Source: Trypanosoma brucei
Lineage: Eukaryota
Length of the DNA: 64,000 nt
Direction of reading: 5' to 3'
NCBI GenBank assembly: GCA_000002445.1
Contig: CH464491.1
Location: 160,001-224,000 of the forward strand
Shown: positions 1 through 28,348 of the stretch, one piece after another
How the letters are laid out: each line of letters starts with the position of its first letter
Position numbering within the stretch: position 1 is the stretch's first letter
Made by a program: the position numbers and the translations under genes
Notes under the pieces: generated by a model
The model's database searches: none
Seen by the model: the letters and a program-made list of their open reading frames with translations, nothing else
Told to the model about the DNA's origin: nothing

Positions 1-388
1 TGATTGTAGGCAGGTTTCACTGATAGCATACCTCCAATAAAACTCGGCGTCACAGGATAGCAGCCAACACCCATCCACGGTTTAACATCCATCCGACCAC
101 GGAACGTCATAGCACTGGCTCGCATCTCACCGTTTTAAACTGTAACAAGAGCGAAAGGAAAGGAAAACCGCAGTACAGAGTGAACACAATAGTAGTTGTT
201 CATTCGATCGCATTACTCAAGACCAGGTGGGAACTATAGTAACCACACCGGACCTCGGTCATTCCCCACACCCCCCACGCCCTTATTGTGCTCTTCACCT
301 CTTAAAACCAGATACCCACACATGCGGCAGTCAGCCACAATCGATTATCATCACTGCAAAAATAACAAAAAGAGACTTTACCCCAGCA

Positions 389-808: not shown

Positions 809-1015
809 AACTGGACAGAAAAAGAAAAGAAGAATTATTAGAGACTGTGGGAAAAATCGAGGAGTCACGTAAAGCGCGGCGAAAACACATACTCGAGAAA
901 GAAACAGATGTAGGTAAGTGTATGCACACACGTACGCGTGCCTGTGAGTACAACACGAAAAAATTGTCAAGAGGGAAATGTGTGTTCGATAAACAATCGC
1001 GAAACTCTTTGCTCT

Positions 1016-2569: not shown

Positions 2570-3061
2570 TTTGCATTACTAACTTCTAACAAAAGGGCAA
2601 GTCGTCAGGTCTAAAAAACAAATGGTCAATAAACATAAACAGATAATAGCATTAATACAACAAGGGGTGAGGAATCCAGGCAACACCGCACGACTACAAG
2701 AGGACACGCCGCATCCGGAAGTAGTGGATCCATAAGGTGACGCATCGCCGAGCCAACAAAACAAACACGCATAAAAGATAAACAAGGGTGTGGAAAAAAT
2801 TAGGGCGCACTTTCACTACCTCCCGAGCATGAGTGAACCAAAATTACCATCCATATCCAACCCAGGTGCTCAGTAACCTCTACGCAAGTGCACCATTTGC
2901 AAAAAGTTCCGATGGGTCCCCCTGCGGTTCACCCACCTCCCTATCCGGTCCTTTGCCAATCGCTATTTGAAACGGTAACGTATAGGTGTACATCCGCATC
3001 AAGTCCCTACTGTCCGTATGAAAAGGAACGACATAACCGCGCAGTAAACCAAATCAAGTGA

Positions 3062-3349
3062 CTAATACCACCGCCACCGTTCTAGACGCTTGTATTTATG
3101 AATAAACTCCTTTGTGTACACCTGTGACGCGTAGTAGTTCTTGTCCTGGAAGTGCGAGTAGTGCGGCATGTATGCTGCATGATACAAATACACGATAATC
3201 GCCATTGGGGTAAACCCAATAAAGAAAAACGGCAGAAACGTGTCGGTCATTGTCCATTGATGTGGGGGATTAAACCAACGTCCGGAAAAGGGTGGTGCGA
3301 AGAGGTTTGACGTCGCATGTCCCCGCACGATGAGAGATCGACGCAGCAT
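3062..3349 (-). CDS. Small (95 aa) protein with a mitochondrial-presequence-like N-terminus and one hydrophobic helix. It may be a small respiratory-chain or membrane subunit.
   Basis: The ORF starts with ATG (MLRRSLIVRGHATSNLF...), an Arg-rich amphipathic N-terminus typical of mitochondrial targeting. It contains a TM-like segment FLPFFFIGFTPMAIIVYLY and a basic C-terminus. It lies in an otherwise ORF-free 1.3-kb gap and is co-oriented with the minus-strand gene cluster. Confidence 0.4.
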   Translation of the reverse strand: MLRRSLIVRGHATSNLFAPPFSGRWFNPPHQWTMTDTFLPFFFIGFTPMAIIVYLYHAAYMPHYSHFQDKNYYASQVYTKEFIHKYKRLERWRWY

Positions 3350-3878: not shown

Positions 3879-5396
3879 CTACTGACCTAACCGGCGACCG
3901 GCCATTATACCGTCCAGTGAAGTGGACGAAGGTTGTGGAAAGCCACTGTTCTGACCAGCGAACTGTGCGATTTGTTGTTCCATCGTATTCAGTTGGGTCA
4001 CGCCGGTGCCCATATTGTCGAAAGGTGCATAACCCTGGGGAGCGCCCATTCCCATGCCCACAGCAGAGTGTGGAGCGCCACTGGACCACATGCCCGACTG
4101 TGCGGTCGGCATCGCTTGCGACAAAGGTGGTGATTGAGTCTGTTGAGCTGTTGGCGGCATATTGTACCATCCTCCACCGGAAGGGACACCGGCCGGTTGT
4201 TGCAAGGGTGCGGCTAAAGGCTGAGAATTAGCGTACGGGAATTGAGTCTGTGACGGCTGCTGGGGCCACTGCTGCTGTTGTTGCTGGGGCCACTGCTGCT
4301 GTTGTTGGGGCCACTGCTGCTGTTGTTGGGGCCACTGCTGGTGAGTTTGCAGCTGCTGGGCATTGTTGCTTGTAAAACCTCCAAATGGATCTACCGAGGC
4401 TGCCTGCTGTTGGGCAGGCATAGAGAACGCGCTAGGAGGCGCTGTGGCAGTTACTGGTACCGCGGGAGCTGACGCAAAAAGGTCATCCAGCATGTCGTGC
4501 CTAGGCTCTGCCTTTGGATGGGCCTCAACTGCATTGGAAGAAATATTATCTTCTGGTGGCGCCGTTGCCTTGATTTCAGAGGGCGCTGCACCCACGCCAC
4601 CAAACGCCCGACGTCTTTCCTCCTCCTCAAGTCGCTTCGCTAGCTCCATGTCGGCTTTTTCGGATGCCTCTTTTGCCGCGTTGCTGCGCCTTTCGAGTCC
4701 AAGCATACGCTGTGCCTCAGAAACAGTTATGCCGGCGCGGCGCTCCTCCTCACATTGCATGCGGGCGGCGAGCTCTCTATCCTCCTGTTCTTGCTGTTCC
4801 CGTGAAATTGTATAACTTGTAGTGGAGGCATGCTGAAATGTGTTTGAAGGTTGTGTGGCATTCGAACCCCCTTGGAATTGCGAAGAACCAAATCCACCAT
4901 ACATGTTGCTGCCAATGGACTCACCACTCAATTTGGCCCGTGTTGCTGCAGCTTTGTAACGCTCATCGCGCAACGTGGCAGGATCGCTGAGAAGGTCGAA
5001 GAGCTTCTTGGCACGCTCCCTCACAGAAAGACCGTGGTCCGCTCCTTGCTTTCCCGTATAGTAAAATGTCTGGGAGATGTGCTGCAAAGTGGGGAGTATC
5101 GAGCAAAGGGGAGGGAGTCCAACCTCAGGAACATTTCGCGCCAGGTGATCCAGAAGTAGAAGAGCTTTGTAGCAGGGTCTCCAAGACTTGTCGCGATTCT
5201 TCAAACGAAGCTTGATCTCCTCCATAATTTTTACAGTACCAGCTTGGAAGACACGACAAACATTGTCCATTTGCTCACCAGTCGGACCCCAAGGGTCCTC
5301 ATTTGTCGCTTCATGAACAAGTCGTGCATATTCGTTACCGCTGGTTTTCATACGAAGCATCTCTTTTGCCGCGTGGAGAGAAGTCGGAAATGACAT
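3879..5396 (-). CDS. Epsin-related ENTH-domain protein (EpsinR-like clathrin adaptor) with a Gln-rich C-terminal repeat region.
   Basis: The first ATG is at 5396 (MSFPTSLHAAKEM...); the track start at 5429 is a TTG. The N-terminus carries the ENTH signature: VHEATNEDPWGPTGEQMDNVCRVFQ resembles the epsin motif ATSNDPWGPS, and ...KALLLLDHLARNV follows. The C-terminus is low-complexity and Q/P-rich with a WPQQQQQ tandem repeat and NPF/DxF-like motifs. Confidence 0.8.
   Translation of the reverse strand: MSFPTSLHAAKEMLRMKTSGNEYARLVHEATNEDPWGPTGEQMDNVCRVFQAGTVKIMEEIKLRLKNRDKSWRPCYKALLLLDHLARNVPEVGLPPLCSILPTLQHISQTFYYTGKQGADHGLSVRERAKKLFDLLSDPATLRDERYKAAATRAKLSGESIGSNMYGGFGSSQFQGGSNATQPSNTFQHASTTSYTISREQQEQEDRELAARMQCEEERRAGITVSEAQRMLGLERRSNAAKEASEKADMELAKRLEEEERRRAFGGVGAAPSEIKATAPPEDNISSNAVEAHPKAEPRHDMLDDLFASAPAVPVTATAPPSAFSMPAQQQAASVDPFGGFTSNNAQQLQTHQQWPQQQQQWPQQQQQWPQQQQQQWPQQPSQTQFPYANSQPLAAPLQQPAGVPSGGGWYNMPPTAQQTQSPPLSQAMPTAQSGMWSSGAPHSAVGMGMGAPQGYAPFDNMGTGVTQLNTMEQQIAQFAGQNSGFPQPSSTSLDGIMAGRRLGQ
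4259..4345 (-). repeat. In-frame tandem repeat of about 21 nt (GGGGCCACTGCTGCTGTTGTT)x4. It encodes (Q)5-6WP repeats inside the epsin-like gene.
   Basis: Direct repetition of ggggccactgctgctgttgtt is visible at 4262-4340. The minus-strand translation shows QQWPQQQQQWPQQQQQWPQQQQQQWPQQ. Confidence 0.8.
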
Positions 5397-14145: not shown

Positions 14146-14940
14146 TTACCTGAATATAATAAGATTCCTTTCACTATCAACAGACTTCTTCAGCTGCAGC
14201 TTTTCTTGTTCAGCGCTGTGGTCAACCTCAGCACAAGCTGGAACAAAATCCTTCGGTACTTTTAAAACTTTACCTGTTTCGAGCTTTATTTCTTTTGCTG
14301 GGCGTTTCATTTTGTTTTCCCAGTAAAGCTTCTCTTTCCGACGCTTCTCAAGCTCTTTTCGTTTGTTGTTTTCCGGTGGCTGAAAAACGATGGCATCACG
14401 ATCTCCGAAGAATAATTCATGGTAATGGCCGTTCGTTTGCTTCTTGGGGTCAAGCGAGCCGAGTACCGGGTTGTGCGGCATGGGTAGGGGTGTATTCGGA
14501 TCTATTGTGAACCTGATTATTGTACCATGATCACGACGAGGCGAGTGCTCGGTAGAAACCTCCACTCCAGCATCACGCTTCCCATTGGCCTTTCTTTTAG
14601 AAAAGGTAACGACGGCCTTTTTCTTATCAAGAACTTCCCTCATGTCGTCTGGAATCTTAGAGAAAATATGGTCTTCTTCGCGGGAAATATTCTCCAGTAA
14701 AGCAAGAGCATCTGAATGGAGAGAGACACCTTCTTTATCAGAAAGTGTTTTAACAGCACGAGAGACGAATGAAGTTACGTCGTCAATTCTTCTAGCATTT
14801 TCCCTGAATGCGCGTGCAGAAAGGATCCTTCGCATGACGTGTGCAGGGATATCAGCACCTGACGCGACAGCAGGGTCCTCCCCATTTTCATCCGCACTCA
14901 CTGAGCGGTTCATCTCGGGGCGCTCCTCCATCAGTTCCAT
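14146..14940 (-). CDS. Hypothetical protein of about 264 aa, basic and Lys-rich at the C-terminus. It is the first gene of the minus-strand transcription unit downstream of the retroelement.
   Basis: The first ATG is at 14940 (MELMEERPEMNRSV...); the track start at 15042 is a GTG. The frame is uninterrupted to 14146. I recognise no domain. Confidence 0.5.
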   Translation of the reverse strand: MELMEERPEMNRSVSADENGEDPAVASGADIPAHVMRRILSARAFRENARRIDDVTSFVSRAVKTLSDKEGVSLHSDALALLENISREEDHIFSKIPDDMREVLDKKKAVVTFSKRKANGKRDAGVEVSTEHSPRRDHGTIIRFTIDPNTPLPMPHNPVLGSLDPKKQTNGHYHELFFGDRDAIVFQPPENNKRKELEKRRKEKLYWENKMKRPAKEIKLETGKVLKVPKDFVPACAEVDHSAEQEKLQLKKSVDSERNLIIFR

Positions 14941-16731
14941 ACGCAACGATCTTTTCGTTAACCTTTCTCGATTATATTTGAAGTATATCCTCAACCTAAC
15001 CCTAGAATAAATTGGTAAGGCACAAGAGCTGCTTAGGGCCACCGGTCACTCCCGTAACTGCAAGAACAATATACTAATATACACACGTACATGCACGAAC
15101 AAAAAGTTCTGTTGACACTTACAGTTGCTTAAAATACTAAAACCAAAGACTGGGCTCTAAACCCAAATGCACACCGCGCCTTCACATAGAAACGCAACAT
15201 TTTAAGCCGCTGAGCATGAACAAATGATTGTGTCGTCTCAACGACACATGACCGAAGAGGTGCGCAAGGACGTCCAATGACACAACAAAAGAGTGACCAC
15301 CACAATGACAATCGTTGGGCGGCGCGTTTAATTGCATTACAACTACGTCGGTACCTTCGCACTAACCATACATTTTAGTTCAAGCCAGAGAGATAACCGT
15401 GTAAAAGAAAATTTCCGTCCTTTTTCGTGACAAACGAGAGAAAACAGCCAAAGGCAACGACTTTACAGGGGAAAGGACAGGCGCTGACGAGACCAACAAC
15501 ACCTAGACATTATGCAGTACCACCGCTGGGTCCTGGTAGCACCCTGTAACCCAACCCTAGCCTCACATGAACTGTCTAAAGCACAAAAGAACGCGGACGT
15601 CACCAGTTCCAACATTAAAAGGCTATACAATAGGCTTTCAGTGATCTATTCCTATCACTTGTTTGTCTCTCTTGCTCATCCGTGGGGGAGGGGGGAACAG
15701 ACACCAATACACACCTTTCAGTCGCTATCGCGAGTCGGACTCAATTCTGCCGCTATCGTGCATGGTTAAAAGTCCCCCTGTTGTCCAAATCCCAATCGGG
15801 TTTCACGATTTCGTTGACACTGCGGCGCCGGAGGTGCAATATCTATTACACAAAGTAACGTCCCCTCCGCATCAGACTCATTCTGCGGTTATCTCATACC
15901 ACTTTTTCGCTCTAAGTCTTCGTTATTTTTTTTTATACTAGCTCTTCTTCTTTCCGTCTTTCTCCCTTTCGCGGGTGTGTGAGAGTAACTCACTGTACAT
16001 GGCCTTTCGTGTGCGATCGTTGCGGATAGTGCTCACGTTCCCAACCCCTTACACAGGGCTAAGAAAGCGCGATGCAAGTGGAGAGCGAGTGCGGGATTGG
16101 TGACACCCCTGTGCCGCGAGGAGAAGCTATGCAGGCTTTCGCGAAGTCGCATACATCGTACGATCGGCCCCTTTACAAAACATTGTACACGAGAGTGTTC
16201 GAACCAGCAGCGGTTCAGTAAGTGTTACAACGTTTCCTTCCATTCGTTGCGCCGGCTTATGCCTTCGAGTGTCGCGTGGAAGCGTTGGCCCCTTCACTAT
16301 CAAGTGCACGCTTGATCCGATTGCACGGTGTGGCGCGCACACCGGGCACACCGCCGCTGCCGCGGGCGCCCTCTCGGCACACGAAGTCCATCGGTGCCAG
16401 CTTCCTGCGCTGGAGCCTAAATCCCTTCCCACTGCCATATGCTCCGCAGCGCCCTCCGGAACAACCCCCTTGACTAAACACTCTCTGGCATATACTGAAT
16501 TATGCATCATGATCCACAAGTCTTTCCTCGACTTGACTATAACGCTTGATCACTCCGAGGGGCTGGATAATCACAACAGTTCCGCCCCCACCTTGTACAG
16601 TATCACGTTTCAGCTTCTTTTGTAAGGTGACTGGAGGGTGCACACCGAAGTTGGGCAGGCAGAGGTTGCGTTGGCACTGCCTCTGCTTACGGTTTTTTTC
16701 CAGGGGAAACAATTCACCGTTAGTCCGTATC

Positions 16732-17131
16732 TTTTTTTTTTAATTCCCATCACAACACCATGTCGAGCAGCGGGTGCCAGCGCCTACGCCGTGTATAGCC
16801 CGTACGTTTCGTGCTAATCTCTTTCCTTGAGATAGCCCGGCGCAGTTCCACTGAATCCCGCGCGACGACGGGCTGGGATTCTCTTCCACATCACCGGACA
16901 GCAGCATCTTAGTGCGGATGATACTGCTGATGACACGCTGGCACGTGCCCAGGAACCGATAAATGAAAAACGGTGTCCCAGCATAACGCTGCTGATCCCT
17001 GTGCTGTATGATGCCGTAGCCGGAGCACAGCAGTGTTCCCCATGAAAGGAATACTGCTGGCTCTTGGCTTCCCCCGATGATACGGGATACTGGACCCTGG
17101 CACCACGTTGAGGTGGCCGGCATCACCAGGG
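16732..17131 (-). mobile_element. RIME-like short non-autonomous ingi derivative of 400 bp. It has the Pr77 hallmark, about 320 nt shared with the ingi 5' end including a degenerate 2A-coding start, a 70-nt unique tail and an A10 tail.
   Basis: The minus-strand read from 17131 is CCCTGGTGATGCCGGCCACCTCAACGTGGTGCCAGGGTCCAGTATCCCGTATCATCGGGGGAAGCCAAGAGCCAGCAG, the ingi/L1Tc/RIME Pr77 signature. Its next roughly 240 nt are near-identical to 20743-20960 of the adjacent element. It ends ...GGGAATT(A)10 at 16732-16741. The track ORF 16740..17162 (-) carries MLLSGDVEENPSPSS. Confidence 0.7.
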
Positions 17132-20100
17132 CGTACGTTTCGTACGAGTCGACCCCGTACATTGAACCCTGTGATGTAGATGCGATATTGGAATACTCCT
17201 CGTTTTTGGCTGATCTACCTTGAGTGAGTCGGCACGCACACTGCCAGCTGTGAGTTCTCGGTTGGAAAAAGATCCTGGAAATGCATACGAAATTCGGGGA
17301 ATCGCCGCATACTGATGTTCATGGTGCATCCGCAGAAACAAATCCGTGCTTGCTCACCTTCCATATTTCCGGACTTGATTGACACCAGCCACGAGCTCTG
17401 CATTCACGCCATCTCGTTGTAATGCCAGCGTGTGTCAGAGTGTTTTTCACTGCCGTAATGTTCGTACTGATTGGTGGAGCTTGTGGCCATGTAAACCGAT
17501 CTTTGTTCGGGTTAGCCTCTCAGGCACAGCGGTGTTACTCGCGGGTTGATATTTCGCAGCAACCATTCACAATGCAAGGAGACGGCGATGCGCAAGCTCT
17601 CTTCCACCGTTCGCCAAGTGCCTCCTCTCGCGTCACGCCGCTGGAAGTGAATACGAACTGCAGCCCAATGCTCGCTTTCCTGCTTTCTATCTTTAGGACT
17701 GGTCGCCATAGCTCTCGTGCAGGCGGTTCGATAGCACTCAATGAGCCATTTGCTAGCGCAGTGGGGAGAGACGGCGAGTTGTTGAAAATCGACAGTTTCC
17801 TCATCGTTTTCTCCCGCATGGAGAGGTTCTTTAGTACACTCCGCGCACCAAGCTCCAGAACAATGCATTCCGCTCTGTAACTGCATGAGAGTTTCCCTGC
17901 TCCTGTCTTGGGTGCACAAATCAGCGTGTTGTTTCTATAGAGCAGGGCAGCTGCCCCGGACTTCTCACCGAGGGACACGGATCCATCAGTCCACAATTCG
18001 TAGTGCTCTCGTCGCGGTGGCTCCTTCCCCCTCCGTGCAAAATGCCGTGCAATCCACTTTTCGGAAGCCTCCCTTTTGACATCGTCAGGGTCATCAGCGC
18101 ACACAGGCTTTATCTGCGTGTGAAATATCGGTCGGCAGCTGTGGTGAAGCGTCGATGTCTCTAGTGGGTGCTCGCGTGGCTCAATGTGGAGGTGGGGGTA
18201 GAACCGCATGATGCGGGAATGTAAGACTCTGACTGGATGTTTGCTGTGGTATACTTCCTCAGCACTGCGCCGCAAACATCCGCCTCGTGACTCACACATC
18301 AGCATGAATTTCATGCTGCGCACAAGAGTGGCCGTCTTGAGTGGCAGGAGGTTTGCTTCCAGCAGAGAGTCCTCTTTGCGCGTCCCATGCTGTATGCCGG
18401 CTGTGATGCGACTGGCTTTGTGTTGTGCTGCTGCAAGGAGGTCGCGACTTCGTTTTGAAGCGTCCCAGTACCATACCTCAATGCCATGCATGGTGTGTGC
18501 CTGTACGAGTGCTAGATAAAAAGCTCTCAGCACTTGTCGTCTTGGCCCCCATGTAGAAGCTGAGATGGCTGCTATCTGCAGTAGTCGGAAGTCCATCTTG
18601 CGTCTCGTTTCGGCCGCATGTGTTGCCATCCCCTGCAGACTCTGGAATGTTACTCCAAGAAGCTTTAGTGTCCTGTCAGCTCCTATTCTTTTGCCGTCGA
18701 GTTGTAATGTAAGGGAGTGCCGCTCTATACACCCGAAGAGTGTGCACTTTGTTTTCGCTACGTTGACAGACATGAAGTACTCTTTTGACCACTGTAACAC
18801 CACGTTTAGACCGCATTGTAGTGTGTGGTTGATGACATCCCTCTCTGTGTGCCTCGCAAGTATCGTTAGGTCGTCTGCAAAGAATCCGTGCTGCAGTAAC
18901 GGCACTTCTGCAAGGCGTTGGCTCAACGAGTTCATGACAATAATGAACATGATTGGGCCAAGGACAGTTCCTTGTGGCACTCCTCGCTCAAATGTTCTGC
19001 TTCTGGAAAGCTTCTCCTTGAATCTCACTCTGCCAGTTCGGTTACTCAGAAATGATACGCACCACTTCACAATGTGGGGTGATACCTTCATTCTGTGCAT
19101 TTCCCTCGCAATTTTGTCGTGGTCTACTGTATCAAATGCCTTCTCGTAGTCAACGAATACAGCACCCGTACGAGATTGGTGCGTGGGGCGGCAGAGGGCA
19201 GCGCGGACGTGCAGGAGTTGTTCGAGCGTTGAGCATCCGGGGCGAAAGCCTGATTGCTGCGGCGTCAGCTGGGACTCAACAGTGTCTCTAAGTCTCGCGG
19301 CAATTATGCGCTCCATGACTTTGCAGAGACAGCTCGTGAGCGTCACAGGCCTGTAAGAATCGAGGTCCTCCGCCTTTTTTCCGGCCTTCAGGATGGGGAT
19401 GATAACACCAGTCTTCCATGCAGGCGGCACGACTCCCGTTCGTAGGCTCTCATTGAATAGCCTCAGAACAACATTCAGCGCTGTTCTACCGAGATGTTGC
19501 AGTGCCTCGTTGTATAAGCAATCAGGTCCGGCTGCGGATCCACTCGGTAGCAGTTTGATCGATCTCCGTAGTTCAGCCATCGTGATGGGACTGAACTCAC
19601 TCGCTATCGTCTTTATTGGTGCCGGTGGGTGTGAGTCGGTGTGCCTTCTTGCGCGGGACGAGTACAGTTTAATGAACCTCTCAGCTTGACGGTAGTCCGT
19701 GATGGCCGCGTTATCAACAAGTACAGCCGGTGTGGTTAGTGGTCGTGGCGCATATACCTTCTTGAAAATGTGCCAACTGCAGCGGTCTGACACCGCAAGT
19801 CTGGAGTATAGCGTGCTCCATCTCTTCTTTGTGATACGGTCCAGGATCTGCTTACGCGTGGCTACCAACTTTTCCCCTCGGTGGGAGGGTCCGCATCCAG
19901 CGATCTCTTCATCGAGTTTCGCGAGCTCAGGTGTCCAATGTGGTGACGTTGCTCTGCAGCCACGGGGGACGGAGACCTTCGTCGCAATGCGGATGGCGGA
20001 GCTCAATTTCTGTTCCAGGGTGTTGACGTTCTTCTTTCTACCAATTTTCCTGCAGTACTCGTCAACCTTCAGACGGAAATTCCTCCAGTCAGCTTTTAGC

Positions 20101-20965
20101 CATGCGTACATGGGCTTTCGAGGCCGCGGGCAGCTCAGCGCATCTGTGTCGTCTCCAACGATAACATCGAAAAATATGTGATGGTGATCGCTATTGGGAG
20201 AATGAAGCGATGTCCACGTGTACACTGTGCAATTCCTTGACAGTGTCACATCAGGGGTGGACTCCCCGTGGTGGCGCGCGTTCCTGGTGCACTCACCAGT
20301 GTTGCAGACCAGAAACTGGTTGTCAATGCGCCACTGTGTGAGGGTTTCACCCTTGGTATTTGGTGGGCTCGCGCGATCCGATGCCAACGCGTGTGCGTTA
20401 GCGTCTGCACCGATGAGCTGTGAACTTTCAGTCGTCAGAAGCGTATCTAGGTCAGTTGCCGTGAAGGTGTGTTTTGGTGGGATGTATGCCGACGTGACAG
20501 TCAGCGCCGTTCCACGTGCAAGGTGAATTGTTGCATGCACTTGTTCAATGCGACCAATAACATGCATACCGGTCTCGACTGGTAGGTCCTCCCTCACTAG
20601 TATTGATACACCACCTCCTTTGCAGTTACGAGCTATTCCGTGATGTTGGTAGCCAGCAACGCTAAAGCAAGCCGCCTCTCCAGGCGTCATCCTTGTCTCG
20701 CTCAACAGACAAAAGGCGATCCGCTCATCAACAAGGGTTTTGTGGAGTGCTAATCTCTTTCCTTGAGATAGCCCGGCGCAGTTACACTGAATCCCGCGCA
20801 ACGACGGGCCGGGATTCTCTTCCACATCACTGGACAGCAGCATCTTAGTGCGGATGATACTGCTGATGGCACGCTGGCACGTGCCCAGGGACCGACAAAT
20901 GAAAAACGGTGTCCCAGCAAGACGCTGCTGATCCCTGTGCTACATGACGCCGTTGCCGGAGCAAA
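17132..20965 (-). mobile_element. ingi/L1Tc-clade non-LTR retrotransposon copy of about 3.8 kb. It is 5'-truncated just inside Pr77 and has no poly(A) of its own before the next element.
   Basis: The single ORF encodes 2A, AP endonuclease, reverse transcriptase (FADD) and RNase H (WTDGS). Its 5' region is near-identical to the short element at 16812-17040. The conserved Pr77 block is not seen at its 5' end. The 3' boundary is assigned at the point where the Pr77 of the next element starts. Confidence 0.8.
17535..20843 (-). CDS. Retrotransposon polyprotein of 1102 aa. It comprises an N-terminal 2A peptide (DVEENPGP), an apurinic/apyrimidinic endonuclease, a reverse transcriptase and RNase H.
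   Basis: The ATG at 20843 gives MLLSSDVEENPGPSLRGIQCNCAGLSQGKRLAL... RT motifs are present: ...DYEKAFDTV..., GVPQGTVLGPIMF and FFADDLTIL. The RNase H motif is ELWTDGSVSLGEKSGAAALL. There are no internal stops. An overlapping frame at 17512..17919 (-) holds Cys/His-rich remnants, possibly the C-terminal zinc-finger region out of frame. Confidence 0.9.
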   Translation of the reverse strand: MLLSSDVEENPGPSLRGIQCNCAGLSQGKRLALHKTLVDERIAFCLLSETRMTPGEAACFSVAGYQHHGIARNCKGGGVSILVREDLPVETGMHVIGRIEQVHATIHLARGTALTVTSAYIPPKHTFTATDLDTLLTTESSQLIGADANAHALASDRASPPNTKGETLTQWRIDNQFLVCNTGECTRNARHHGESTPDVTLSRNCTVYTWTSLHSPNSDHHHIFFDVIVGDDTDALSCPRPRKPMYAWLKADWRNFRLKVDEYCRKIGRKKNVNTLEQKLSSAIRIATKVSVPRGCRATSPHWTPELAKLDEEIAGCGPSHRGEKLVATRKQILDRITKKRWSTLYSRLAVSDRCSWHIFKKVYAPRPLTTPAVLVDNAAITDYRQAERFIKLYSSRARRHTDSHPPAPIKTIASEFSPITMAELRRSIKLLPSGSAAGPDCLYNEALQHLGRTALNVVLRLFNESLRTGVVPPAWKTGVIIPILKAGKKAEDLDSYRPVTLTSCLCKVMERIIAARLRDTVESQLTPQQSGFRPGCSTLEQLLHVRAALCRPTHQSRTGAVFVDYEKAFDTVDHDKIAREMHRMKVSPHIVKWCVSFLSNRTGRVRFKEKLSRSRTFERGVPQGTVLGPIMFIIVMNSLSQRLAEVPLLQHGFFADDLTILARHTERDVINHTLQCGLNVVLQWSKEYFMSVNVAKTKCTLFGCIERHSLTLQLDGKRIGADRTLKLLGVTFQSLQGMATHAAETRRKMDFRLLQIAAISASTWGPRRQVLRAFYLALVQAHTMHGIEVWYWDASKRSRDLLAAAQHKASRITAGIQHGTRKEDSLLEANLLPLKTATLVRSMKFMLMCESRGGCLRRSAEEVYHSKHPVRVLHSRIMRFYPHLHIEPREHPLETSTLHHSCRPIFHTQIKPVCADDPDDVKREASEKWIARHFARRGKEPPRREHYELWTDGSVSLGEKSGAAALLYRNNTLICAPKTGAGKLSCSYRAECIVLELGARSVLKNLSMREKTMRKLSIFNNSPSLPTALANGSLSAIEPPARELWRPVLKIESRKASIGLQFVFTSSGVTREEALGERWKRACASPSPCIVNGCCEISTRE

Positions 20966-21380
20966 GCACTGCTCCAAACAAGAGGAACAATGACGTTCCG
21001 TCTGTGCAGAAAGCGAGTTTATGGGCCTTGGGGCCGCGGTGGTGTGGGTGATGTTTTCGTTGAATGAAAAGGCCCCGCCGCCTCATTCGCGTTGCGCGGG
21101 AGGAAGATCAAACCACCTCAGATGTGAATGTTTTTGCTTACTGAAATAAAGCTGTGCTGTGCCAGTCTCGGCGTGTCCGGTGTTTGCGCACCTGAAACTC
21201 CCCTTTGTGGTGCAATATCTTCTTTAGGGACTGTTCGAGTATGTCGGGGTTTTCAGGGACAGCGCGAACCTACTGCGCGCGGTGGATTGGGCTCATTTTC
21301 CAAGGCGGAGTGGTGCCGGTTCTTGGATGCACGGCCGGTCCGCAGCTGCGAGTTCGTCAGCGCCAGCCCTTCGGACCTCA

Positions 21381-21390
21381 GGGGGGGGGG
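21381..21390 (+). repeat. G10 homopolymer inside the strand-switch region.
   Basis: cctca gggggggggg aagtt is read directly. Confidence 0.9.
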
Positions 21391-22049
21391 AAGTTAGGGC
21401 CTGTTTCCCTTTCTAAATCCCCTCAACTACTGTTGGTTAAAAGAATGCAGGGAGTAGAACCGGAGGGGGGAAGCGTCGGGTCCGCCCCGCGTGAAAGCGG
21501 CTGGGGCGTACGACAGGCTTCGCGAGCTGGGGGCGGTTGTGTTTCGCGTGGGTCCGTTATATTTACCCCTTCCGTTTGTATCTCCACTAAAGAGAAAGTG
21601 GTGTCCCGATCCACACTGTATTGCTTCGCCGTGTGCAATTGCTGTGCCGCTGGGGAGTGCCTTACGGCGTCGTGGGACCGACGTGGCTCGGGGACTTAAG
21701 GTGCGCCCTTAAACACCGTGGCTGCTGCCTGGTCATGTGTTTATGCTTTGCGATGTGAGGCATTGTGGGGTCGGGCCTTTATGCGGACCCCTGAGGCGTT
21801 AGTATGCTTGTTTCTCTCGATCCTCTCTGTTTGTGCGCGTATGTTTTCCCCCTCCATGTTTTAGGGAGGGCGGTGGATGGGGAGATGTCACTGAACAACG
21901 TAGCTGTTGATTATTGCTGCTATGTTATTTTATTTTCCTAAGGCCACATTGTGGTGCCTAAATACCTGGGTTATCGTCACGCGCATTTATCATTTTTCTA
22001 TTTAGCCTTTATAGCTGATCCTTCTTTCAAATACATTTGCTTGTTCTAG

Positions 22050-22054
<5 letters not shown>

Positions 22055-22110
<56 letters not shown>
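22055..22110. repeat. (TA)n microsatellite of about 28 units.
   Basis: tatata... is read directly from about 22055 to 22110. Confidence 0.95.
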
Positions 22111-22113
<3 letters not shown>

Positions 22114-24484
22114 TGCAAATGGCATCTTGGTGCACTTGTTCCGTTGCCGGGGTGATTATTTTCAGAGCGTATATACACCGCTTGTGGGTGATCGCGGTTT
22201 CAAGCCGGTTTGCTTTTGTTTTTGAGGACATGTATTGGGGGTGTTACCACTTTTTTGTTAATTGATATTGTGCACTTTTTTGTTTCGGTAAAAAGAAAAA
22301 AAATGACAGTGATATTATTTTTTTTTTTCGCTTACCTTCTATACATATATATATACTTGTCGGTGATACGTGTTTGTGTTTGGTGCTGATAATGCTTGCG
22401 CTGGGAGTTTCTTTTGTTGGTGTTTGTTTTCTCTGTAAATAAGATCGGCTTTCATTTCACTAATAGTCCTTGTAATATATCTTTTTTTTCTTTTTTTTCT
22501 AGGGGGCCATTAGTGCATGTAAGGAGCACTCTTAAGGGAACTTTTGTCAGCAGAATAATCAATGGTAAGTGTTGTACTTTGGCCATTGCGAGTGCGCTGG
22601 ACTTTGGGAGCTGGTACTGATACTTCTGTCTTGACGGATTCAAAAAAAAGACAAAAAACTTCACAACTTTTTCCGAAAGAAAGTGAAGTTTATCCTCTCA
22701 AATCAAGTGCGGATCTGTCGCTTTGCACACGCGCTGGTTGACAATAGATCGATGAGTGACATGTCTGATCACCCTGTGGTGCGGGTCTTTATTAATTGTC
22801 TTGCTCTTTATTGATTCATCTGTGCTTTGGCGACGTAGGCGGAGTAGAGGATTGCCAATTCCGTCCTTTGGAATGGTTTACCGTCTTATTTTATTTTGTT
22901 AACCCAGTTGTCTTATGTGTAATCCTTTATCGGCCGGTGCGAGCTGTGGGTGGGATGCCGATCGTTTTTTCTTCTGCAACGGCAGAGAGTAGTGCTGATG
23001 GATATCGGTAAAGGGTGTTTGCTGCGTTGGTGAAGTGAGTATGTCGATGGAAGGGTACGCATATAATTAATATATCTGGTGCTTTTTCTTCTTATTGAGT
23101 AGCTTTTGAGAGCTCGGGACGGTAAAGTTAGTTGCCGCATTAGGTGTATGTTGTTCTGGTTAATTTCTGTTCAGATCCTTACGGTAAGCACGAAACCATT
23201 ACACCTGGTATGCTTTAATCCGTTAATTCAGGCGGTTCCACATTTGGTTCAATCACTGAAATACAGCTGAATTTTTAAATTCTTGTTTTAAAATTACCTC
23301 ACTTAATAAAAGGAAGGAAATGACACATCAAAGTAATGGAAATGCTGCATTGTACACCTGTGGGTGAGCTGATGAAGTAATAAAATATGGACCCGCGCGT
23401 TAAAGCCGTTTGTTTCCATCAGCAATGCCCTCGTGTCGGTTGTTTTCCCTTTTTGTCTTTCCATTATTCCACTGTAAGTAGTTTGCTTGAATTACGGTTT
23501 GATAAAAGGAACTGATTCACCTGGGTGTCTGCCGTAGTCGGAAGGGTGGGCGGAAACGTTGCTGTTTTCTGTGAGGTAGTTAACTCTTTGCTGCTATAAT
23601 CTTTACAATACCGTTTTAAGATGTGTATGTTATTTTTAGGTGTAGTTTCCTGGCATTTTTGTGGACAGATGATGTTTGTCTACGTTTATGGAACCAGTAA
23701 GTAGGAAAAGATGTATGAATTAACAAAAGGTATTTGTGCATCAGTGACTAGCGTTTTTTCCTCGTGTACAGTAATGTCTCTCTGGTACAGTTATTAATTG
23801 TTAGAGCGCGGTGCTGTGATCTCGGGTGTAACAACTGAATCTTTTTTTTGTTTCCTTGCTGAAGTGTATGGCTCTTTCTGGAATAACACATATGTAATTA
23901 TGCCATTGCTTACAGTGGAAGTAGGGGTGGCTAACATAATGATTTGTCCTTTTGATAACACTGTATTGAAGGAAGAATTATCGCTCTTTTAGTTTTCCTG
24001 TTCTTTGTCTGTGGTCTTGTAAGTTGGTGATATTGTGTATTAAGCTTTCAATTTTTCTTTATAATTTGCAGTAGGCAGTTGTCTCTTGCGGTCATTTGGC
24101 CTACGGTATAGGATGTGTTAAGGTGTAGCTCACGTAAGTAAAGTTCATGATCGAATTCTTTTTGATTTTCGTTTTCACACATTTGATCCTTAAAGACTTA
24201 CACATGCCCTCTTTTTCATTATTATTATCTTGTTCATGAGTTGATGCGACATTGGTGGGTAGGGTTAGATGACCTTTTCTCTTTGACGCAATATGTCGCG
24301 GTTGTTACGTTCGCTTAGACACCAACGTCTCTTGTTTGTTATTTATGTATATTTGGGTACAACCGTTTTTCATTCGTTTCCCTTTGTCTTATAGTAACTT
24401 CATATATATATATTAATTTTAACGAGTTTGTATTTTTGTTTTCCTTACAATTATTGTAACCTACCATTCGGTTTATCACCCATA

Positions 24485-24549
24485 CTATTATTACCCTTAT
24501 TTTTCTTTCTTGATATAGACCTTGAGTTCTTCTGCTTTAAATCTACACA
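24485..24549 (+). promoter_or_regulatory. Pyrimidine-rich tract with a downstream AG. It is the probable trans-splicing acceptor region for eIF5A.
   Basis: The sequence ttattacccttatttttctttcttgatatagaccttgagttcttctgctttaaatctacacaATG fits the kinetoplastid poly(Y) plus AG splice-acceptor architecture immediately 5' of the first ATG. Confidence 0.4.
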
Positions 24550-25050
24550 ATGTCTGACGATGAGGGACAGTTTGCCGAAGGCGGAGCGCAGGTGGGCTCT
24601 CTGACGTATCCGATGCAGGCAGGCGCTCTGAAAAAGGGCGGCTACATTTGCATTAATGGACGTCCGTGCAAGGTAATCGATCTTTCAGTGTCAAAAACTG
24701 GAAAACACGGTCATGCAAAGGTGAGCATCGTTGCCCTTGACATTTTCACCGGAAACAAGATGGAAGATCAGGCCCCCTCAACTCACAACGTTGAGGTGCC
24801 CTTCGTGAAAACTGCAACGTACAGCGTACTGGACATTCAGGAAGATCGTGAAGACCCCAGCAAGCCAGCTCACCTTTCGCTCATGGACGATGAGGGTGAG
24901 ACTCGGGATAACCTGGACATGCCTCCCAACGCGGAACTCGCAGGGCAAATCAAGGAACAGTTTGATGCAGGAAAGGACGTTTTGGTCGTTGTTGTTTCTG
25001 CTATGGGAATTGACCAGATTCTCAGTTTCAAGAATGCAGCTGAGCGATAA
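24550..25050 (+). CDS. EIF5A: Eukaryotic translation initiation factor 5A (eIF5A, hypusine-containing).
   Basis: The ORF starts at an ATG and encodes 166 aa. It carries the hypusination loop [12 protein letters not shown] ([13 protein letters not shown]) and the overall eIF5A fold signature (GRPCKVIDL..., C-terminal OB region). Confidence 0.95.
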
Positions 25051-25393
25051 GGCCGTAAGTTCTAGGTTAATATATTTTTTTCTTTATCTTTTTCTATACA
25101 ATGTCTTAAAAGAAGAGTATGAGACACCCATGTTCTAAATTGTTAGCTGATTTTGTCGAGAATAGGGGTTATGTAGCCCCGTGTCCGTGTTTGACGTTGT
25201 TGATGTAACTCTCGTGCTAAGAGGTCATGAAAATTTGCCTCTCCCAGCTTCTCTTTGTGCTTTACAAACACATACACACACAGAAAAAAAAGGAGCGCAT
25301 AACGAGCGGTTGTATATATGTATGTGTACGTACACAATAAGGATAGAGGAGAGACTAGGAATACTTTCTTCACGAGGATAAGGCCCTTTTAAT

Positions 25394-28348
25394 ATGACAA
25401 GCAAACATAGTGCTGTATTAACTATAACCGAAAAGGGTGATTGGAGAACTGCGAAAAATGGCGAGAAGGTATGGCGGTATATGGTGCAAACGGCACCGAC
25501 GATGAGAGCTCGCTGCAGAAAATGTTCACAACCTATTTTAAAAGGTGACCTGAAATGGGGAACTCCTATACGTCATTCCCATGGAGCGTATGGGTGGATT
25601 ACCGCCTGGCATCATGTGGGGTGTACGAGAATTGCTGAACGTAAGGGCTTTAGTGACATAGTACATGGAATAGACTTACTTCCACCTGAGAAACGGGCGC
25701 AGGTCGTTGCGGAGGTGACATCCGACTCGATGCCTGAGCATTTACTACCTTTGAATCCTGACGATTTAGTAAAAAAACCTCTTCTTCCCGAAACTGAAGC
25801 ACCAGCTGAGTTGCTAAGACCACTTCTTCGTTATCAAAAGGAGGGTCTTGGCTGGATGGTGTCACAGGAGTTGTCTCAAGTTAAGGGGGGAATATTGGCT
25901 GATGAAATGGGTATGGGTAAAACAATCCAGATGATCAGTCTTTTTCTCGCCCGTCGCCTCGTGGGACCTACACTGGTTGTTTGCCCAGTTAGTTCAATGC
26001 TCCAGTGGGAATCTGAGGTGAAAGACCATGTGGTGTCCGGTTCCCTTTCGGTGGTAGTGGTGAGCCGTACCAAAAATGTGAGAAGGGATGATATTCAAAA
26101 TGCTGATGTGGTTTTGACTACGTATCCGATGCTCGAACAGTCTTGGAGGGAGCTAGTCAACAAGAAAAGAGTTCCATGCCCTTACTGCCAACAGCTTTAT
26201 TTGCCGCGGCAGCTTGTTGTGCACAATCGGTATTTTTGCGGGCCTCATGCAAAGAAAACTTCTAAACAGGCGAAGCGTGAAAAACGACAAGGTGGCACTG
26301 GTTCTTCTCCCACTCGAAAAGTTCAAGCAAAAGAAACGATTATGAAGGGGCTTCGTACGTTGCGTGTCGATGTTGACGATAACGCGGAGGAAGGGGAGGA
26401 TTCTGTGTTCGAGGAAGGACCACGGGGTGTTGTTGGACCAATGGGCTTGTATCGTGAGCTCATGGTTGAGGCCGGGCGCAAAGTTAGGAGCCGTTGGGAC
26501 CCCGCGTACGTGGGAAGTGACAGCAGTGGGGATACCAACAATTCTACCACAGAAAGTTCCACCTCATCGGAACGGGATGACTCAGAGGAGGTGTTGTCGA
26601 AAGAGGAGGTGGCCGATGACAAGCTTAGCTCGTTCCGGTGCTTGCACTGCGGGTTTCAGTTGCTACGATACCCGTTTTGCCCTAAGATAGGGCAATGTCA
26701 CGTTCTCTCTGATTATATGAAACAAATAATTGAGACTGACGACGGTAGTGACGGCGTTGACCTATCTCAATCAGTTTTCCACTCGGTAACCTGGAGTCGG
26801 ATTGTTCTGGACGAAGCTCATAGAATAAAAGGTAGCAACACAAGTACGTCAAGGGCTGCCTTTGCCTTGGTAGGTGAGCACAGGTGGTGCCTCACGGGAA
26901 CCCCTCTACAAAATCGTGTAGGGGATGTGTACAGCCTGGTTCGTTTTCTACGGTTGGCGCCTTATGCAAGGTATTATTGTGGAACTGAGGGGTGCTCCTG
27001 CTCGTCCTTTTCTCATCCATTTTCTGGAAATGATTTACGACACTGTATATTTTGTGGTCATGGACCGGTCCAACATTATGCTTATTTTAATCGCCATATT
27101 TTAAATCCTATAATACGTTATGGTTACGTTGGCGACGGCAGGCGGGGAATGATGATGCTCTCTAATGAAATCCTCCAGAAGTGTATGCTGAGGAGGACGA
27201 AGGCCGAAAGAGCAAGCGACTTGCACTTGCCGCCAATGACCGTGGAAACGTTCCAAGTAAAGCTGACCGATGAGGAGAGAAGCTTCTATGAGTCGTTGTA
27301 CAAAAAAAGCACTGCCGCTTTTGATACCTTTGTTGAGAAAGGAACGGTGCTTCATAACTATGCCCACATCTTTCAACTTTTGAGTCGTTTGAGGCAGGCT
27401 TTGGATCACCCACTGATTGTCATTAATTCTATGAATGTCGGTGGCTCGTCGTGCTCGAAGGGGATGTGTGGAATTTGCACTGAGAGTTGTGGAGAGAACT
27501 CAGTACAGGTTGACCCTTGTAAGCATACCTTCCACCGGATTTGTCTTTCGCAATTTGTCGAAAGCCAACCTTTAAAGGAATATAATTGCCCTGTGTGTTA
27601 TGTGGCTATCAACATCGACCTGCGGAGTCTACACTCAGGGTGGGACGAAGACGGTGCCCAACCTGTTCTTCCTCCAGAGTTAGTTCACTCAGACAACGAA
27701 AGCGATGAAAACAACGTTGAGGAGGAAAGTAAAGGGAGGAAACTAGATGATTCTGCGGAGGGGAAATCCGCTCGAGCGAGATCGGTCAAGAAACGAGGCA
27801 TACTCTCCCGGATTGATTCATCAAAACCTCTTCGAGGGACGAAACTGGATGCCATAACAGAATACATTTGCAGCATTCCAGAGGAGGAAAAGGTAATTGT
27901 GTTTTCTCAATTTGGGGATACTCTGGACCTCATTCAGTTGTGGTTACAGAAGGTGAAAGTAAAGACGGTGAAACTTGTGGGGTCGCTCATGTTATCGCAG
28001 CGGCAAGCGGTTCTCAGGGCTTTCTTGCATGATAAGAGCGTTCGAGCCATCCTTATTTCTCTCAAGGCCGGTGGGGAGGGTTTAAATTTACAAATTGCTA
28101 ACCATGTTGTACTTGTTGATCCTTGGTGGAATCCCGCGGTTGAAATGCAGGCGGCGCAGCGAGCCCATCGTATTGGGCAGACGCGACCCGTTCGCGTGGT
28201 CCGTTTTGTCACTGAACGTTCTGTAGAGGAGCGCATGTTGGAGTTACAAGAAAAGAAGATGCTGGTTATTGAGGGGACTATCGATGGTAAGGTAAGTTCG
28301 CTGCAGAGTCTTAGCGAGGATGATCTTCAGTTTCTGTTCACGAGGTAG
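25394..28348 (+). CDS. SNF2-family DNA-dependent ATPase with an N-terminal PARP-type zinc finger and an embedded RING finger (RAD5/RAD16-like DNA repair protein).
   Basis: The ORF starts at an ATG and encodes 984 aa. The N-terminal zf-PARP-like module is WRYMVQTAPTMRARCRKCSQPILKGDLKWG...HSHGAYGWITAWHHVGC. The SNF2 N-terminal motifs are LLRYQKEGLGWMV, ILADEMGMGKTIQ and DEAH. The RING is CGICTESCGEN...PCKHTFHRICLSQ...CPVC. The helicase C-terminal motifs are LISLKAGGEGLNL and VDPWWNPAVEMQAAQRAHRIGQTRPV. Confidence 0.9.
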   Translation: MTSKHSAVLTITEKGDWRTAKNGEKVWRYMVQTAPTMRARCRKCSQPILKGDLKWGTPIRHSHGAYGWITAWHHVGCTRIAERKGFSDIVHGIDLLPPEKRAQVVAEVTSDSMPEHLLPLNPDDLVKKPLLPETEAPAELLRPLLRYQKEGLGWMVSQELSQVKGGILADEMGMGKTIQMISLFLARRLVGPTLVVCPVSSMLQWESEVKDHVVSGSLSVVVVSRTKNVRRDDIQNADVVLTTYPMLEQSWRELVNKKRVPCPYCQQLYLPRQLVVHNRYFCGPHAKKTSKQAKREKRQGGTGSSPTRKVQAKETIMKGLRTLRVDVDDNAEEGEDSVFEEGPRGVVGPMGLYRELMVEAGRKVRSRWDPAYVGSDSSGDTNNSTTESSTSSERDDSEEVLSKEEVADDKLSSFRCLHCGFQLLRYPFCPKIGQCHVLSDYMKQIIETDDGSDGVDLSQSVFHSVTWSRIVLDEAHRIKGSNTSTSRAAFALVGEHRWCLTGTPLQNRVGDVYSLVRFLRLAPYARYYCGTEGCSCSSFSHPFSGNDLRHCIFCGHGPVQHYAYFNRHILNPIIRYGYVGDGRRGMMMLSNEILQKCMLRRTKAERASDLHLPPMTVETFQVKLTDEERSFYESLYKKSTAAFDTFVEKGTVLHNYAHIFQLLSRLRQALDHPLIVINSMNVGGSSCSKGMCGICTESCGENSVQVDPCKHTFHRICLSQFVESQPLKEYNCPVCYVAINIDLRSLHSGWDEDGAQPVLPPELVHSDNESDENNVEEESKGRKLDDSAEGKSARARSVKKRGILSRIDSSKPLRGTKLDAITEYICSIPEEEKVIVFSQFGDTLDLIQLWLQKVKVKTVKLVGSLMLSQRQAVLRAFLHDKSVRAILISLKAGGEGLNLQIANHVVLVDPWWNPAVEMQAAQRAHRIGQTRPVRVVRFVTERSVEERMLELQEKKMLVIEGTIDGKVSSLQSLSEDDLQFLFTR

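What the first reader, a model, noticed from the sequence alone, without database searches (positions are those of the whole stretch)
17132..20965. ingi-type non-LTR retrotransposon with an uninterrupted 1102-aa 2A-APE-RT-RNaseH ORF
Most genomic ingi/L1Tc copies carry frameshifts. This copy has a single clean 3.3-kb ORF spanning the 2A peptide, AP endonuclease, reverse transcriptase (FADD) and RNase H, so it may be a recently active or still coding-competent copy. The element is also compact at about 3.8 kb, against about 5 kb for canonical ingi/L1Tc. The C-terminal Cys/His region appears only out of frame (17512-17919). The element could therefore be a deletion variant or a distinct subfamily.
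Basis: partly seen in the sequence, partly recalled or inferred. Interest (0 to 1): 0.7.

Follow-up and report, generated by a model that had tools for sequence, protein, structure and literature searches.

The report
Mosaic, decaying ingi retroposon copy
The 1102-codon reading frame is real, but it belongs to a patchwork, non-autonomous copy of the well-known Trypanosoma brucei ingi retroposon: a modern ingi middle joined to an ancient dead relative. It lacks the element's promoter end, a working RNase H and the zinc-finger tail, so it is an ordinary decaying copy and not a live compact subfamily.

Summary
The window is T. brucei brucei TREU927 chromosome 11. The element lies on the minus strand in a divergent strand-switch region.

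Confirmed: the ORF 17535-20843 (1102 aa) exists, with a 2A motif, an AP endonuclease and a reverse transcriptase (FADD). All residues invariant across homologues are kept.

Not confirmed: this is not a compact intact element.
- Only 17865-20973 is modern ingi (nt 96-3204 of 5255, about 95% identical).
- The ingi 5' hallmark (Pr77) and the canonical start codon are missing. An in-frame TAG at 20940-20942 cuts off the 72-aa leader.
- At 17865 identity to ingi falls abruptly to about 50%. The rest (17864-16410) is a frameshifted, deleted relic of an extinct sister lineage (DIRE-like).
- RNase H has lost catalytic residues and gives no Pfam hit. The C2H2 fingers are only degenerate remnants.
- No poly(A) tail or target-site duplication was found.

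The same mosaic, with identical breakpoints, is present in T. b. gambiense and T. b. equiperdum. In T. b. equiperdum the ORF carries a stop at codon 75. In both strains a RIME interrupts the ORF region near codon 1034.

A genuinely intact 1656-aa ingi ORF exists elsewhere. Verdict: ordinary pseudogene-like copy.

The parts
17865..20973 (-). Modern Tbingi-type segment, equal to ingi nt 96-3204. About 95% identical to a canonical 5255-bp ingi, with no frame-breaking indels.
   Evidence: blastn and MAFFT against L001:4513-9767. The same breakpoints occur in T. b. equiperdum, and the 5' one in DAL972.
17535..20843 (-). 1102-aa ORF. Residues 1-992 match the intact ingi protein P0072 residues 73-1063. 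Residues 993-1102 read on into the degenerate relic.
20940..20942 (-). In-frame TAG in the ingi leader (canonical CAG, Gln). It separates the ORF from the position of the canonical start codon.
   Evidence: Translation, compared with the P0072 N-terminus.
20805..20828 (-). 2A-type motif DVEENPGP, ORF aa 6-13.
20175..20789 (-). AP endonuclease domain, aa 19-223. Residues invariant across homologues are kept, but there are private changes such as W20C next to the conserved Asn.
18645..19373 (-). Reverse transcriptase domain, aa 491-733. FADD lies at 18870-18881.
17583..18008 (-). RNase H region. Its first part is ingi-type (TDGS and RAEC kept). From 17864 onward it is relic sequence in which the third Asp, the His and the last Asp are lost.
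17132..17864 (-). Relic of an extinct ingi-related lineage (DIRE-like), part 1. It holds the RNase H C-terminal half, a deletion of about 175 nt with a frameshift, a linker remnant (17595-17524) and a first zinc-finger remnant (17480-17325).
16813..17131 (-). Nested insertion: ingi nt 1 to about 322 (complete Pr77 5' end, 93% identical to ingi, no poly(A)). Its 2A motif is mutated to NPSP.
17132..17143 (-). Upstream copy of the 12-bp direct repeat ACGAAACGTACG, the target-site duplication of the nested insertion.
   Evidence: this 12-mer occurs only twice in the window, against a chance expectation of 0.008.
16801..16812 (-). Downstream copy of the 12-bp direct repeat ACGAAACGTACG.
16410..16800 (-). 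Relic, part 2: degenerate remnants of the 2nd to 4th C2H2 fingers. The A10 run at 16731-16740 is internal and is not a poly(A) tail.
17732..17743 (+). Empty site in TREU927. In T. b. equiperdum and T. b. gambiense a canonical 501-bp RIME sits here in the opposite orientation, with a 12-bp TSD (TAACACTCAATG). In those strains it interrupts the ORF at about codon 1034.

Best explanation
This is a non-autonomous, neutrally decaying mosaic copy of the T. brucei ingi retroposon. It sits in the divergent strand-switch region between the minus-strand gene cluster (last gene 14146-15042) and eIF5A (24550-25050).

A 3.1-kb stretch of modern ingi (nt 96-3204: part of the leader, 2A, APE, RT and the start of RNase H) is joined in frame, at the homologous position, to the 3' part of a much older, extinct ingi-related element of the DIRE type. 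That relic carries frameshifts, deletions and degenerate zinc fingers. It later received a nested ingi 5' fragment.

The long ORF exists because the ingi segment was copied from a coding-competent donor and has not yet acquired a stop in TREU927.

The join was most likely made by a homology-dependent exchange. Candidates are gene conversion of a resident relic, a crossover between neighbouring elements, or a reverse-transcriptase template switch. This step is inferred.

The copy lacks Pr77 (internal promoter and ribozyme), the canonical start codon, a catalytic RNase H, the C2H2 nucleic-acid chaperone domain and a poly(A) 3' end. It therefore cannot retrotranspose on its own.
For: - Source identity: eight flanking proteins are exact matches to TREU927 chromosome 11 proteins.
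- Sharp mosaic: 93-100% identity per 100 nt across ingi nt 163-3160, then 47-60% from 17864 on.
- In-frame collinear continuation into the relic: ORF aa 993-1082 match P0072 1064-1153 at about 40%.
- The relic is closest to Tbingi (40% aa, against 26% to the T. vivax and T. congolense elements).
- Relic differences from ingi fall 39/29/67 on codon positions 1/2/3. It therefore diverged as a separate, once-functional lineage.
- The reading frame runs across the excised nested insert (FNVRGRLV|RNVRAIHGVGAGT, against ingi FAVPGRLLHHLRTIHGIGSGS).
- Relic homology reaches 16410.
- The leader has an in-frame stop and Pr77 is missing.
- RNase H is dead.
- Identical breakpoints occur in independent assemblies of T. 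b. equiperdum and T. b. gambiense.
- In T. b. equiperdum the orthologous ORF has AAA->TAA at codon 75. In both strains a RIME interrupts the ORF region near codon 1034.
- Between orthologues the ingi segment differs by about 3.6%, similar to adjacent non-coding DNA (2.3-3.0%) and above coding flanks (about 1.3%).
- 38 amino-acid changes are private to TREU927, and 34 of them were seen in no other ingi protein. Several hit residues conserved in all sampled copies, for example W20C and W155S.
- The copy is 4.2% from the family consensus, against 1.3% for the intact 1656-aa P0072.
Against: - dN/dS between orthologous copies is 0.56, and 0.46 against a canonical ingi, rather than about 1. Weak constraint, or import of variants from other copies, is therefore not excluded.
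- Having no stop among about 60 private substitutions is somewhat unlikely under neutrality. My rough estimate is about 0.06.
- Relic sequence on the 5' side could not be shown. The alignment of 21120-20972 to Pr77 scores no better than random windows. Gene conversion of a resident full-length relic is thus not distinguished from a crossover or a template switch.
- Only one full canonical ingi DNA (L001) and 15 ingi proteins were available as references.
Confidence: 0.8

Rival explanations
1. One reading: a compact (about 3.8 kb), recently active or still coding-competent ingi variant or subfamily.
For: The 1102-aa ORF is clean, with intact 2A, APE and RT motifs. The ingi segment is about 95% identical to a canonical ingi, within the range of ordinary copies.
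Against: - No Pr77, no canonical ATG, and an in-frame stop in the leader.
- RNase H catalytic residues are lost, the C2H2 domain is degenerate and frameshifted, and no poly(A) tail or TSD was found.
- Only one copy is present in the window.
- The locus is shared by three subspecies or strains, so it is not a recent insertion.
- The copy is more diverged from the consensus than the truly intact copy.
- The ORF is broken in T. b. equiperdum.
Confidence: 0.03
2. A domesticated or trans-acting APE-RT gene. On this view the truncated protein is expressed from the strand-switch region and supplies endonuclease/RT activity, for example for RIME or ingi mobilisation, or for a host function.
For: APE and RT invariant residues are intact. 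dN/dS is 0.46-0.56. The element has the same orientation as the adjacent minus-strand polycistron, so read-through transcription is plausible (inference).
Against: - There is a nonsense codon at position 75 in T. b. equiperdum, and a RIME disrupts the 3' end in two strains.
- Divergence between strains equals that of the neighbouring non-coding DNA.
- Private substitutions hit residues conserved in all other copies.
- The exact protein is absent from a 15-billion-sequence collection, so it is annotated nowhere.
- dN/dS against DAL972 is 0.97 over codons 1-488.
Confidence: 0.05
3. An assembly artefact: reads from an ingi and from a DIRE were wrongly joined in the TREU927 assembly.
For: Repeats of this kind often break assemblies. 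The T. equiperdum OVI contig ends at window 22575, and DAL972 has a 100-N gap inside the element.
Against: The same order and the same breakpoints (ingi nt 96 and 3204) are present in the gap-free T. b. equiperdum assembly. The 5' junction and the left part are also present in DAL972.
Confidence: 0.02
4. Same mosaic, but made during retrotransposition. The reverse transcriptase began on RNA of the old lineage and switched to ingi RNA at the homologous position (nt 3204). Reverse transcription then stopped early, at nt 96.
For: This explains both junctions with one event. It also explains why no relic or Pr77-like sequence is detectable upstream of 20973. 5' truncation is typical of target-primed reverse transcription (general knowledge).
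Against: No poly(A) tail and no TSD were found for the composite. The 3' part is already frameshifted and deleted, which would require a degenerate RNA to have been used as template. This cannot be separated from later decay.
Confidence: 0.15

Closest known systems
Tbingi (T. brucei ingi, ingi4 subclade; 5.25 kb, single ORF of about 1656 aa)
   Same: Window 17865-20973 is about 95% identical to ingi nt 96-3204. It has the same 2A-APE-RT order and motifs.
   Different: It lacks nt 1-95 (Pr77 and the start codon) and everything after nt 3204 in ingi form. The ORF is 1102 aa rather than 1656 aa, RNase H is inactive, there is no C2H2 domain, and no poly(A) tail or TSD was found.
TbDIRE (degenerate ingi/L1Tc-related elements; extinct long retroposons, some of the ingi4 subclade; PMC3820030, PMC2323293)
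   Same: The 3' part (17864-16410) is ingi-related but only 47-60% identical at nucleotide level and about 40% at amino-acid level. It has frameshifts, stops and deletions. Its location in a strand-switch region is typical of such relics (PMC4748587).
   Different: The 5' two-thirds is not degenerate and carries a long ORF. No other member of this relic lineage could be retrieved. The 5' hallmark was not detected.
TbRIME (500-bp non-autonomous partner: ingi nt 1-251 plus nt 5004-5254)
   Same: A canonical RIME with a 12-bp TSD is inserted in this element in T. b. equiperdum and T. b. gambiense. The nested fragment at 17131-16813 shares the RIME/ingi 5' end.
   Different: The nested fragment runs to ingi nt about 322, past the RIME junction at nt 251. 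It has no 3' half and no poly(A). It was therefore copied from ingi RNA and not from RIME.
L1Tc
   Same: Same clade and the same domain plan. This is established knowledge; see PMC4035085.
   Different: It is not the family here. The best matches are T. brucei ingi proteins (90% identity to P0072), and the window is T. brucei DNA.

Membership tests
Autonomous Tbingi | 5' terminal 77-79-bp signature (Pr77), beginning CCCTGG | tested here: not met
   Homology to ingi starts at nt 96. The upstream 149 nt align to Pr77 no better than random windows. An Rfam scan found nothing there.
Autonomous Tbingi | Single long ORF of about 1656 aa starting inside Pr77 | tested here: not met
   The ORF is 1102 aa. 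It corresponds to P0072 residues 73-1063 plus 110 degenerate codons, and there is an in-frame TAG at 20940-20942.
Autonomous Tbingi | AP endonuclease and reverse transcriptase domains with catalytic residues | tested here: met
   Pfam Exo_endo_phos_2 and RVT_1 hits. All 60 columns invariant in 8 homologues are kept.
Autonomous Tbingi | RNase H domain | tested here: not met
   No Pfam RNase_H hit at E<=10, against 5e-11 for canonical ingi. Three catalytic positions are replaced.
Autonomous Tbingi | C-terminal C2H2 zinc-finger region | tested here: not met
   Only 26-42% identical remnants survive, in other frames and with stops. P0072 has a below-cut-off zf-C2H2_4 match near residue 1402.
Autonomous Tbingi | 3' poly(A) tail and a 12-bp target-site duplication | tested here: not met
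   The A10 run at 16731-16740 lies inside the relic coding remnant. No homology was detected beyond 16410, and no flanking repeat was found.
TbDIRE (degenerate ingi-related element) | ingi-related coding remnants with frameshifts, stops and deletions, and high divergence | tested here: met
   Met for 17864-16410 only. Not met for 17865-20973.
TbDIRE (degenerate ingi-related element) | Degenerate Pr77-like 5' signature | tested here: inconclusive
   An 18/26 match lies at roughly the collinear position, but its score is no better than random windows.
Target-primed insertion of the ingi/RIME type (nested fragment) | 12-bp TSD flanking an element that starts at CCCTGG | tested here: met
   An exact 12-mer lies at 17143-17132 and at 16812-16801. 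The host reading frame is restored when the insert is removed. The 12-bp TSD size is from PMC3820030.
Target-primed insertion of the ingi/RIME type (nested fragment) | 3' poly(A) end | tested here: not met
   The fragment ends at ingi nt about 322 and directly abuts the TSD.

The most novel reading that the evidence does not exclude
Dead DIRE relics at Pol II transcription start regions might be re-supplied with intact APE-RT coding sequence from live ingi copies by homology-driven exchange. The resulting RNase H-less, finger-less APE-RT protein might then be expressed by read-through transcription and contribute endonuclease/RT activity in trans, for example for RIME mobilisation.
Probability: 0.04. 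Interest if true: 0.5.

Novelty: already known. Interest (0 to 1): 0.15.

Why it matters
It matters little for discovery. ingi, RIME and DIRE elements of the T. brucei reference genome have been catalogued for two decades, and this is one rearranged copy.

It is useful as a caution: a long clean ORF in a retroposon copy does not mean competence. Here the promoter and ribozyme end, RNase H, the chaperone domain and the 3' end are all missing.

Minor value:
- The locus documents a homology-dependent exchange between a live and an extinct retroposon lineage.
- It documents a strain-polymorphic RIME insertion.
- It documents an unusual 3'-truncated ingi insertion with a perfect TSD.

Tried and rejected
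- An Rfam scan of 15000-25500 for a Pr77/HDV-like ribozyme found only sub-threshold miRNA-like hits on the (AT)n tract.
- The test for a diverged Pr77 upstream of 20973 was not significant. I therefore dropped the claim that relic sequence flanks the ingi segment on the 5' side.
- I first read the A10 run at 16740 as the poly(A) tail of a short RIME-like element, and the tail after the nested fragment as an ingi 3' end. I rejected this when translation across the excised insert proved continuous with the ingi zinc-finger region and homology continued to 16410.
- A protein search with the stitched relic translation found no relatives.
- I tested whether differences between orthologous copies fall in tracts, which would indicate recent gene conversion. 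Private sites of the two strains are interleaved, and 34 of 38 TREU927-private residues are seen in no other ingi protein. Ordinary point mutation fits better.
- The key paper on ingi subfamilies (Bringaud et al. 2009) is not held.
- No tRNA genes and no repeat arrays lie in the strand-switch region, so there is no sign of a centromere.
Full report
**Source and setting.** Eight flanking ORFs are exact matches to annotated proteins of Trypanosoma brucei brucei TREU927 chromosome 11, EAN79046 to EAN79067. Large ORFs lie on the minus strand up to 15042 and on the plus strand from 24550 (eIF5A) and 25394 (a SNF2/RING DNA-repair protein). The GC skew changes sign in between. The finding therefore sits in a divergent strand-switch region. 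This is a location where trypanosomatid retroposons are known to accumulate (PMC4748587, abstract seen).

**The observation.**
- The ORF 17535-20843 on the minus strand, 1102 aa, is real.
- It starts MLLSSDVEENPGP, a 2A-type motif.
- It carries Exo_endo_phos_2 (aa 115-223, E=3.6e-9) and RVT_1 (aa 491-733, E=8e-46).
- It matches the RT cores of solved R2 and LINE-1 ORF2 proteins.
- In an alignment with eight ingi-clade homologues, all 60 columns invariant in those homologues are retained, apart from four conservative differences. The retained columns include the APE catalytic set and the RT Asp, FADD and Lys positions.
- The RNase H claim fails. No Pfam RNase_H hit is obtained even at E<=10, whereas the equivalent canonical ingi segment scores 5e-11. 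The alignment shows FSDS->FNNS, GHCG->TSSG and NEVCD->EEALG.

**Comparison with canonical ingi.** A canonical element was recovered from T. b. equiperdum at L001:4513-9767. It is 5255 bp and runs from CCCTGG to a poly(A) tail. A truly intact ingi protein of 1656 aa (P0072) was recovered from the same protein cluster. It has APE, RVT_1 and RNase_H hits and a below-cut-off C2H2 match.
- Window 20973-17865 equals ingi nt 96-3204 at about 95% identity, with no frame-breaking indels.
- Identity then drops within a few bases to 47-60%.
- At protein level, ORF residues 1-992 equal P0072 residues 73-1063. ORF residues 993-1082 align collinearly and in frame with P0072 1064-1153 at only about 40%.
- The canonical ORF starts inside Pr77 (MPATSTWCQG...). 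In the window, Pr77 is absent and the leader carries an in-frame TAG at 20940-20942.

- Downstream of 17865 the sequence is closest to Tbingi (40% aa in the RNase H half, against 26% to the T. vivax and T. congolense elements).
- Relative to ingi it has a deletion of about 175 nt with a frameshift.
- It has a linker remnant in another frame at 17595-17524, and a first-finger remnant at 17480-17325.
- Differences from ingi in the ungapped RNase H stretch fall 39/29/67 on codon positions 1/2/3. Much of the divergence therefore arose while this lineage was still under protein-level selection. It is an extinct sister lineage and not simply a decayed Tbingi copy. This fits the published category TbDIRE of the ingi4 subclade (PMC3820030).

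**The nested insertion.**
- Window 17131-16813 is ingi nt 1 to about 322, with a complete CCCTGG/Pr77 5' end and 93% identity to ingi.
- It is flanked by the exact 12-mer ACGAAACGTACG at 17143-17132 and 16812-16801. These are the only two occurrences in the window, against a chance expectation of 0.008.
- 12 bp is the characteristic TSD length of ingi/RIME (PMC3820030).
- When the insert and one repeat copy are removed, the relic frame reads FNVRGRLV|RNVRAIHGVGAGT, against ingi FAVPGRLLHHLRTIHGIGSGS.
- Homology continues through the third and fourth finger remnants to 16410.
- The A10 run at 16731-16740 is therefore internal.
- No poly(A) tail or TSD for the composite was found.

**Age and evolution.**
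- The same composite is present at the orthologous locus in T. b. equiperdum (L003, no gaps) with identical breakpoints at ingi nt 96 and 3204. It is also present in T. b. gambiense DAL972 (L002), where the 5' junction and the left part are seen and a 100-N gap lies inside the element. This rules out misassembly and a recent insertion.
- In both other strains a canonical 501-bp RIME (ingi nt 1-251 plus 5004-5254) lies in the opposite orientation at window 17732-17743, with a 12-bp TSD. TREU927 has the empty site.
- In T. b. equiperdum the orthologous ORF has AAA->TAA at codon 75.
- Between TREU927 and T. b. equiperdum the ingi segment differs by about 3.6%. This is close to adjacent non-coding DNA (2.3-3.0%) and well above coding flanks (about 1.3%).
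- dN/dS is 0.56 against the T. b. equiperdum orthologue, 0.97 against the available half of DAL972, and 0.46 against the canonical ingi.
- Relative to a consensus of 15 ingi proteins, TREU927 has 38 private amino-acid changes, T. b. equiperdum has 24, and only 4 are shared. The private sites are interleaved along the ORF.
- 34 of the 38 TREU927 changes occur in no other sampled ingi protein. Several replace residues identical in all sampled copies, for example W20C next to the conserved Asn, W155S and C172R.
- The ORF is 4.2% from the consensus, against 1.3% for the intact P0072.
- Together this indicates neutral decay. The absence of a stop in TREU927 is luck. My rough estimate is about 0.06 given about 60 private substitutions. 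This is an inference, not a computed result.

**Mechanism.**
- Shown: a mosaic with sharp, strain-conserved junctions. The 3' junction is at a homologous, in-frame position.
- Inferred: a homology-dependent exchange between a live ingi and an extinct relative.
- Gene conversion of a resident relic, a crossover between a 5'-truncated ingi and a downstream relic, and an RT template switch followed by 5' truncation would all give this structure.
- I could not separate these three, because the 149 nt upstream of 20973 align to Pr77 no better than random sequence.
- The nested fragment has a complete 5' end, no poly(A) and a perfect 12-bp TSD. The dinucleotide AC is shared between the fragment's end and the TSD. 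It is best read as target-primed reverse transcription primed internally on ingi RNA. That reading is inference.

**Comparison with known families.** The locus combines three known kinds: Tbingi, DIRE and, in other strains, RIME. It fails most defining features of an autonomous ingi (Pr77, full ORF, RNase H, C2H2, poly(A), TSD) and meets only the APE and RT features. [quoted passage not shown] I found no description of this particular mosaic, but it is a copy-level rearrangement and not a new kind of element.

**Verdict.** The ORF is confirmed. The interpretation as a compact, possibly active element is not supported. The finding is an ordinary, decaying, chimeric ingi/DIRE copy and is of low interest.

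Noticed in passing
window 17732-17743 (+); L003:1869-2369; L002:3312-3813: A canonical 501-bp RIME with a 12-bp TSD (TAACACTCAATG) is present in T. b. equiperdum and T. b. gambiense. TREU927 has the empty site. This is a strain-polymorphic retroposon insertion inside another retroposon.
   Followed up: yes
window 16801-17143 (-): An ingi fragment with a complete 5' end (nt 1 to about 322) but no 3' half and no poly(A). It is flanked by a perfect 12-bp duplication. This is unusual for target-primed reverse transcription, which normally gives 5'-truncated copies. Internal priming on ingi RNA with 2-nt microhomology (AC) is a possible explanation.
   Followed up: partly
window 16740-17162 (-): A 140-aa ORF reads from relic sequence through Pr77 and the leader of the nested fragment into a mutated 2A motif (DVEENPSP), then into the relic zinc-finger remnant. 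It is almost certainly meaningless, but it could be mistaken for a gene.
   Followed up: no
window 16127-16519 (-); L002:1694-2077: A 127-aa gene is called in the DAL972 assembly at the position of this 130-aa window ORF, which overlaps the last detectable relic remnant (16410). It has no Pfam hit and is probably a spurious gene model.
   Followed up: no
window 22054-22110: An (AT)28 microsatellite in the strand-switch region. Its length differs between strains, with 36-42-bp gaps in the alignments to DAL972 and T. b. equiperdum.
   Followed up: partly
window 15875-23026: The whole non-coding strand-switch region is about 2-4% diverged between TREU927 and the other T. brucei assemblies, against about 1.3% in the adjacent coding DNA. 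This suggests either deep haplotypes or simply a lack of constraint.
   Followed up: partly
L004 (T. equiperdum OVI contig CZPT02001254), ends at window 22575: The short-read T. equiperdum OVI assembly breaks about 1.6 kb before the composite element. Left and right flanking genes lie on different contigs, which illustrates how this repeat cluster fragments assemblies.
   Followed up: no
L001:4513-9767: The canonical ingi used as reference is itself broken. It has a 2-nt deletion near ingi nt 1045 and an in-frame stop at nt 4390-4392. A different T. b. equiperdum copy encodes the full 1656-aa protein (P0072).
   Followed up: partly
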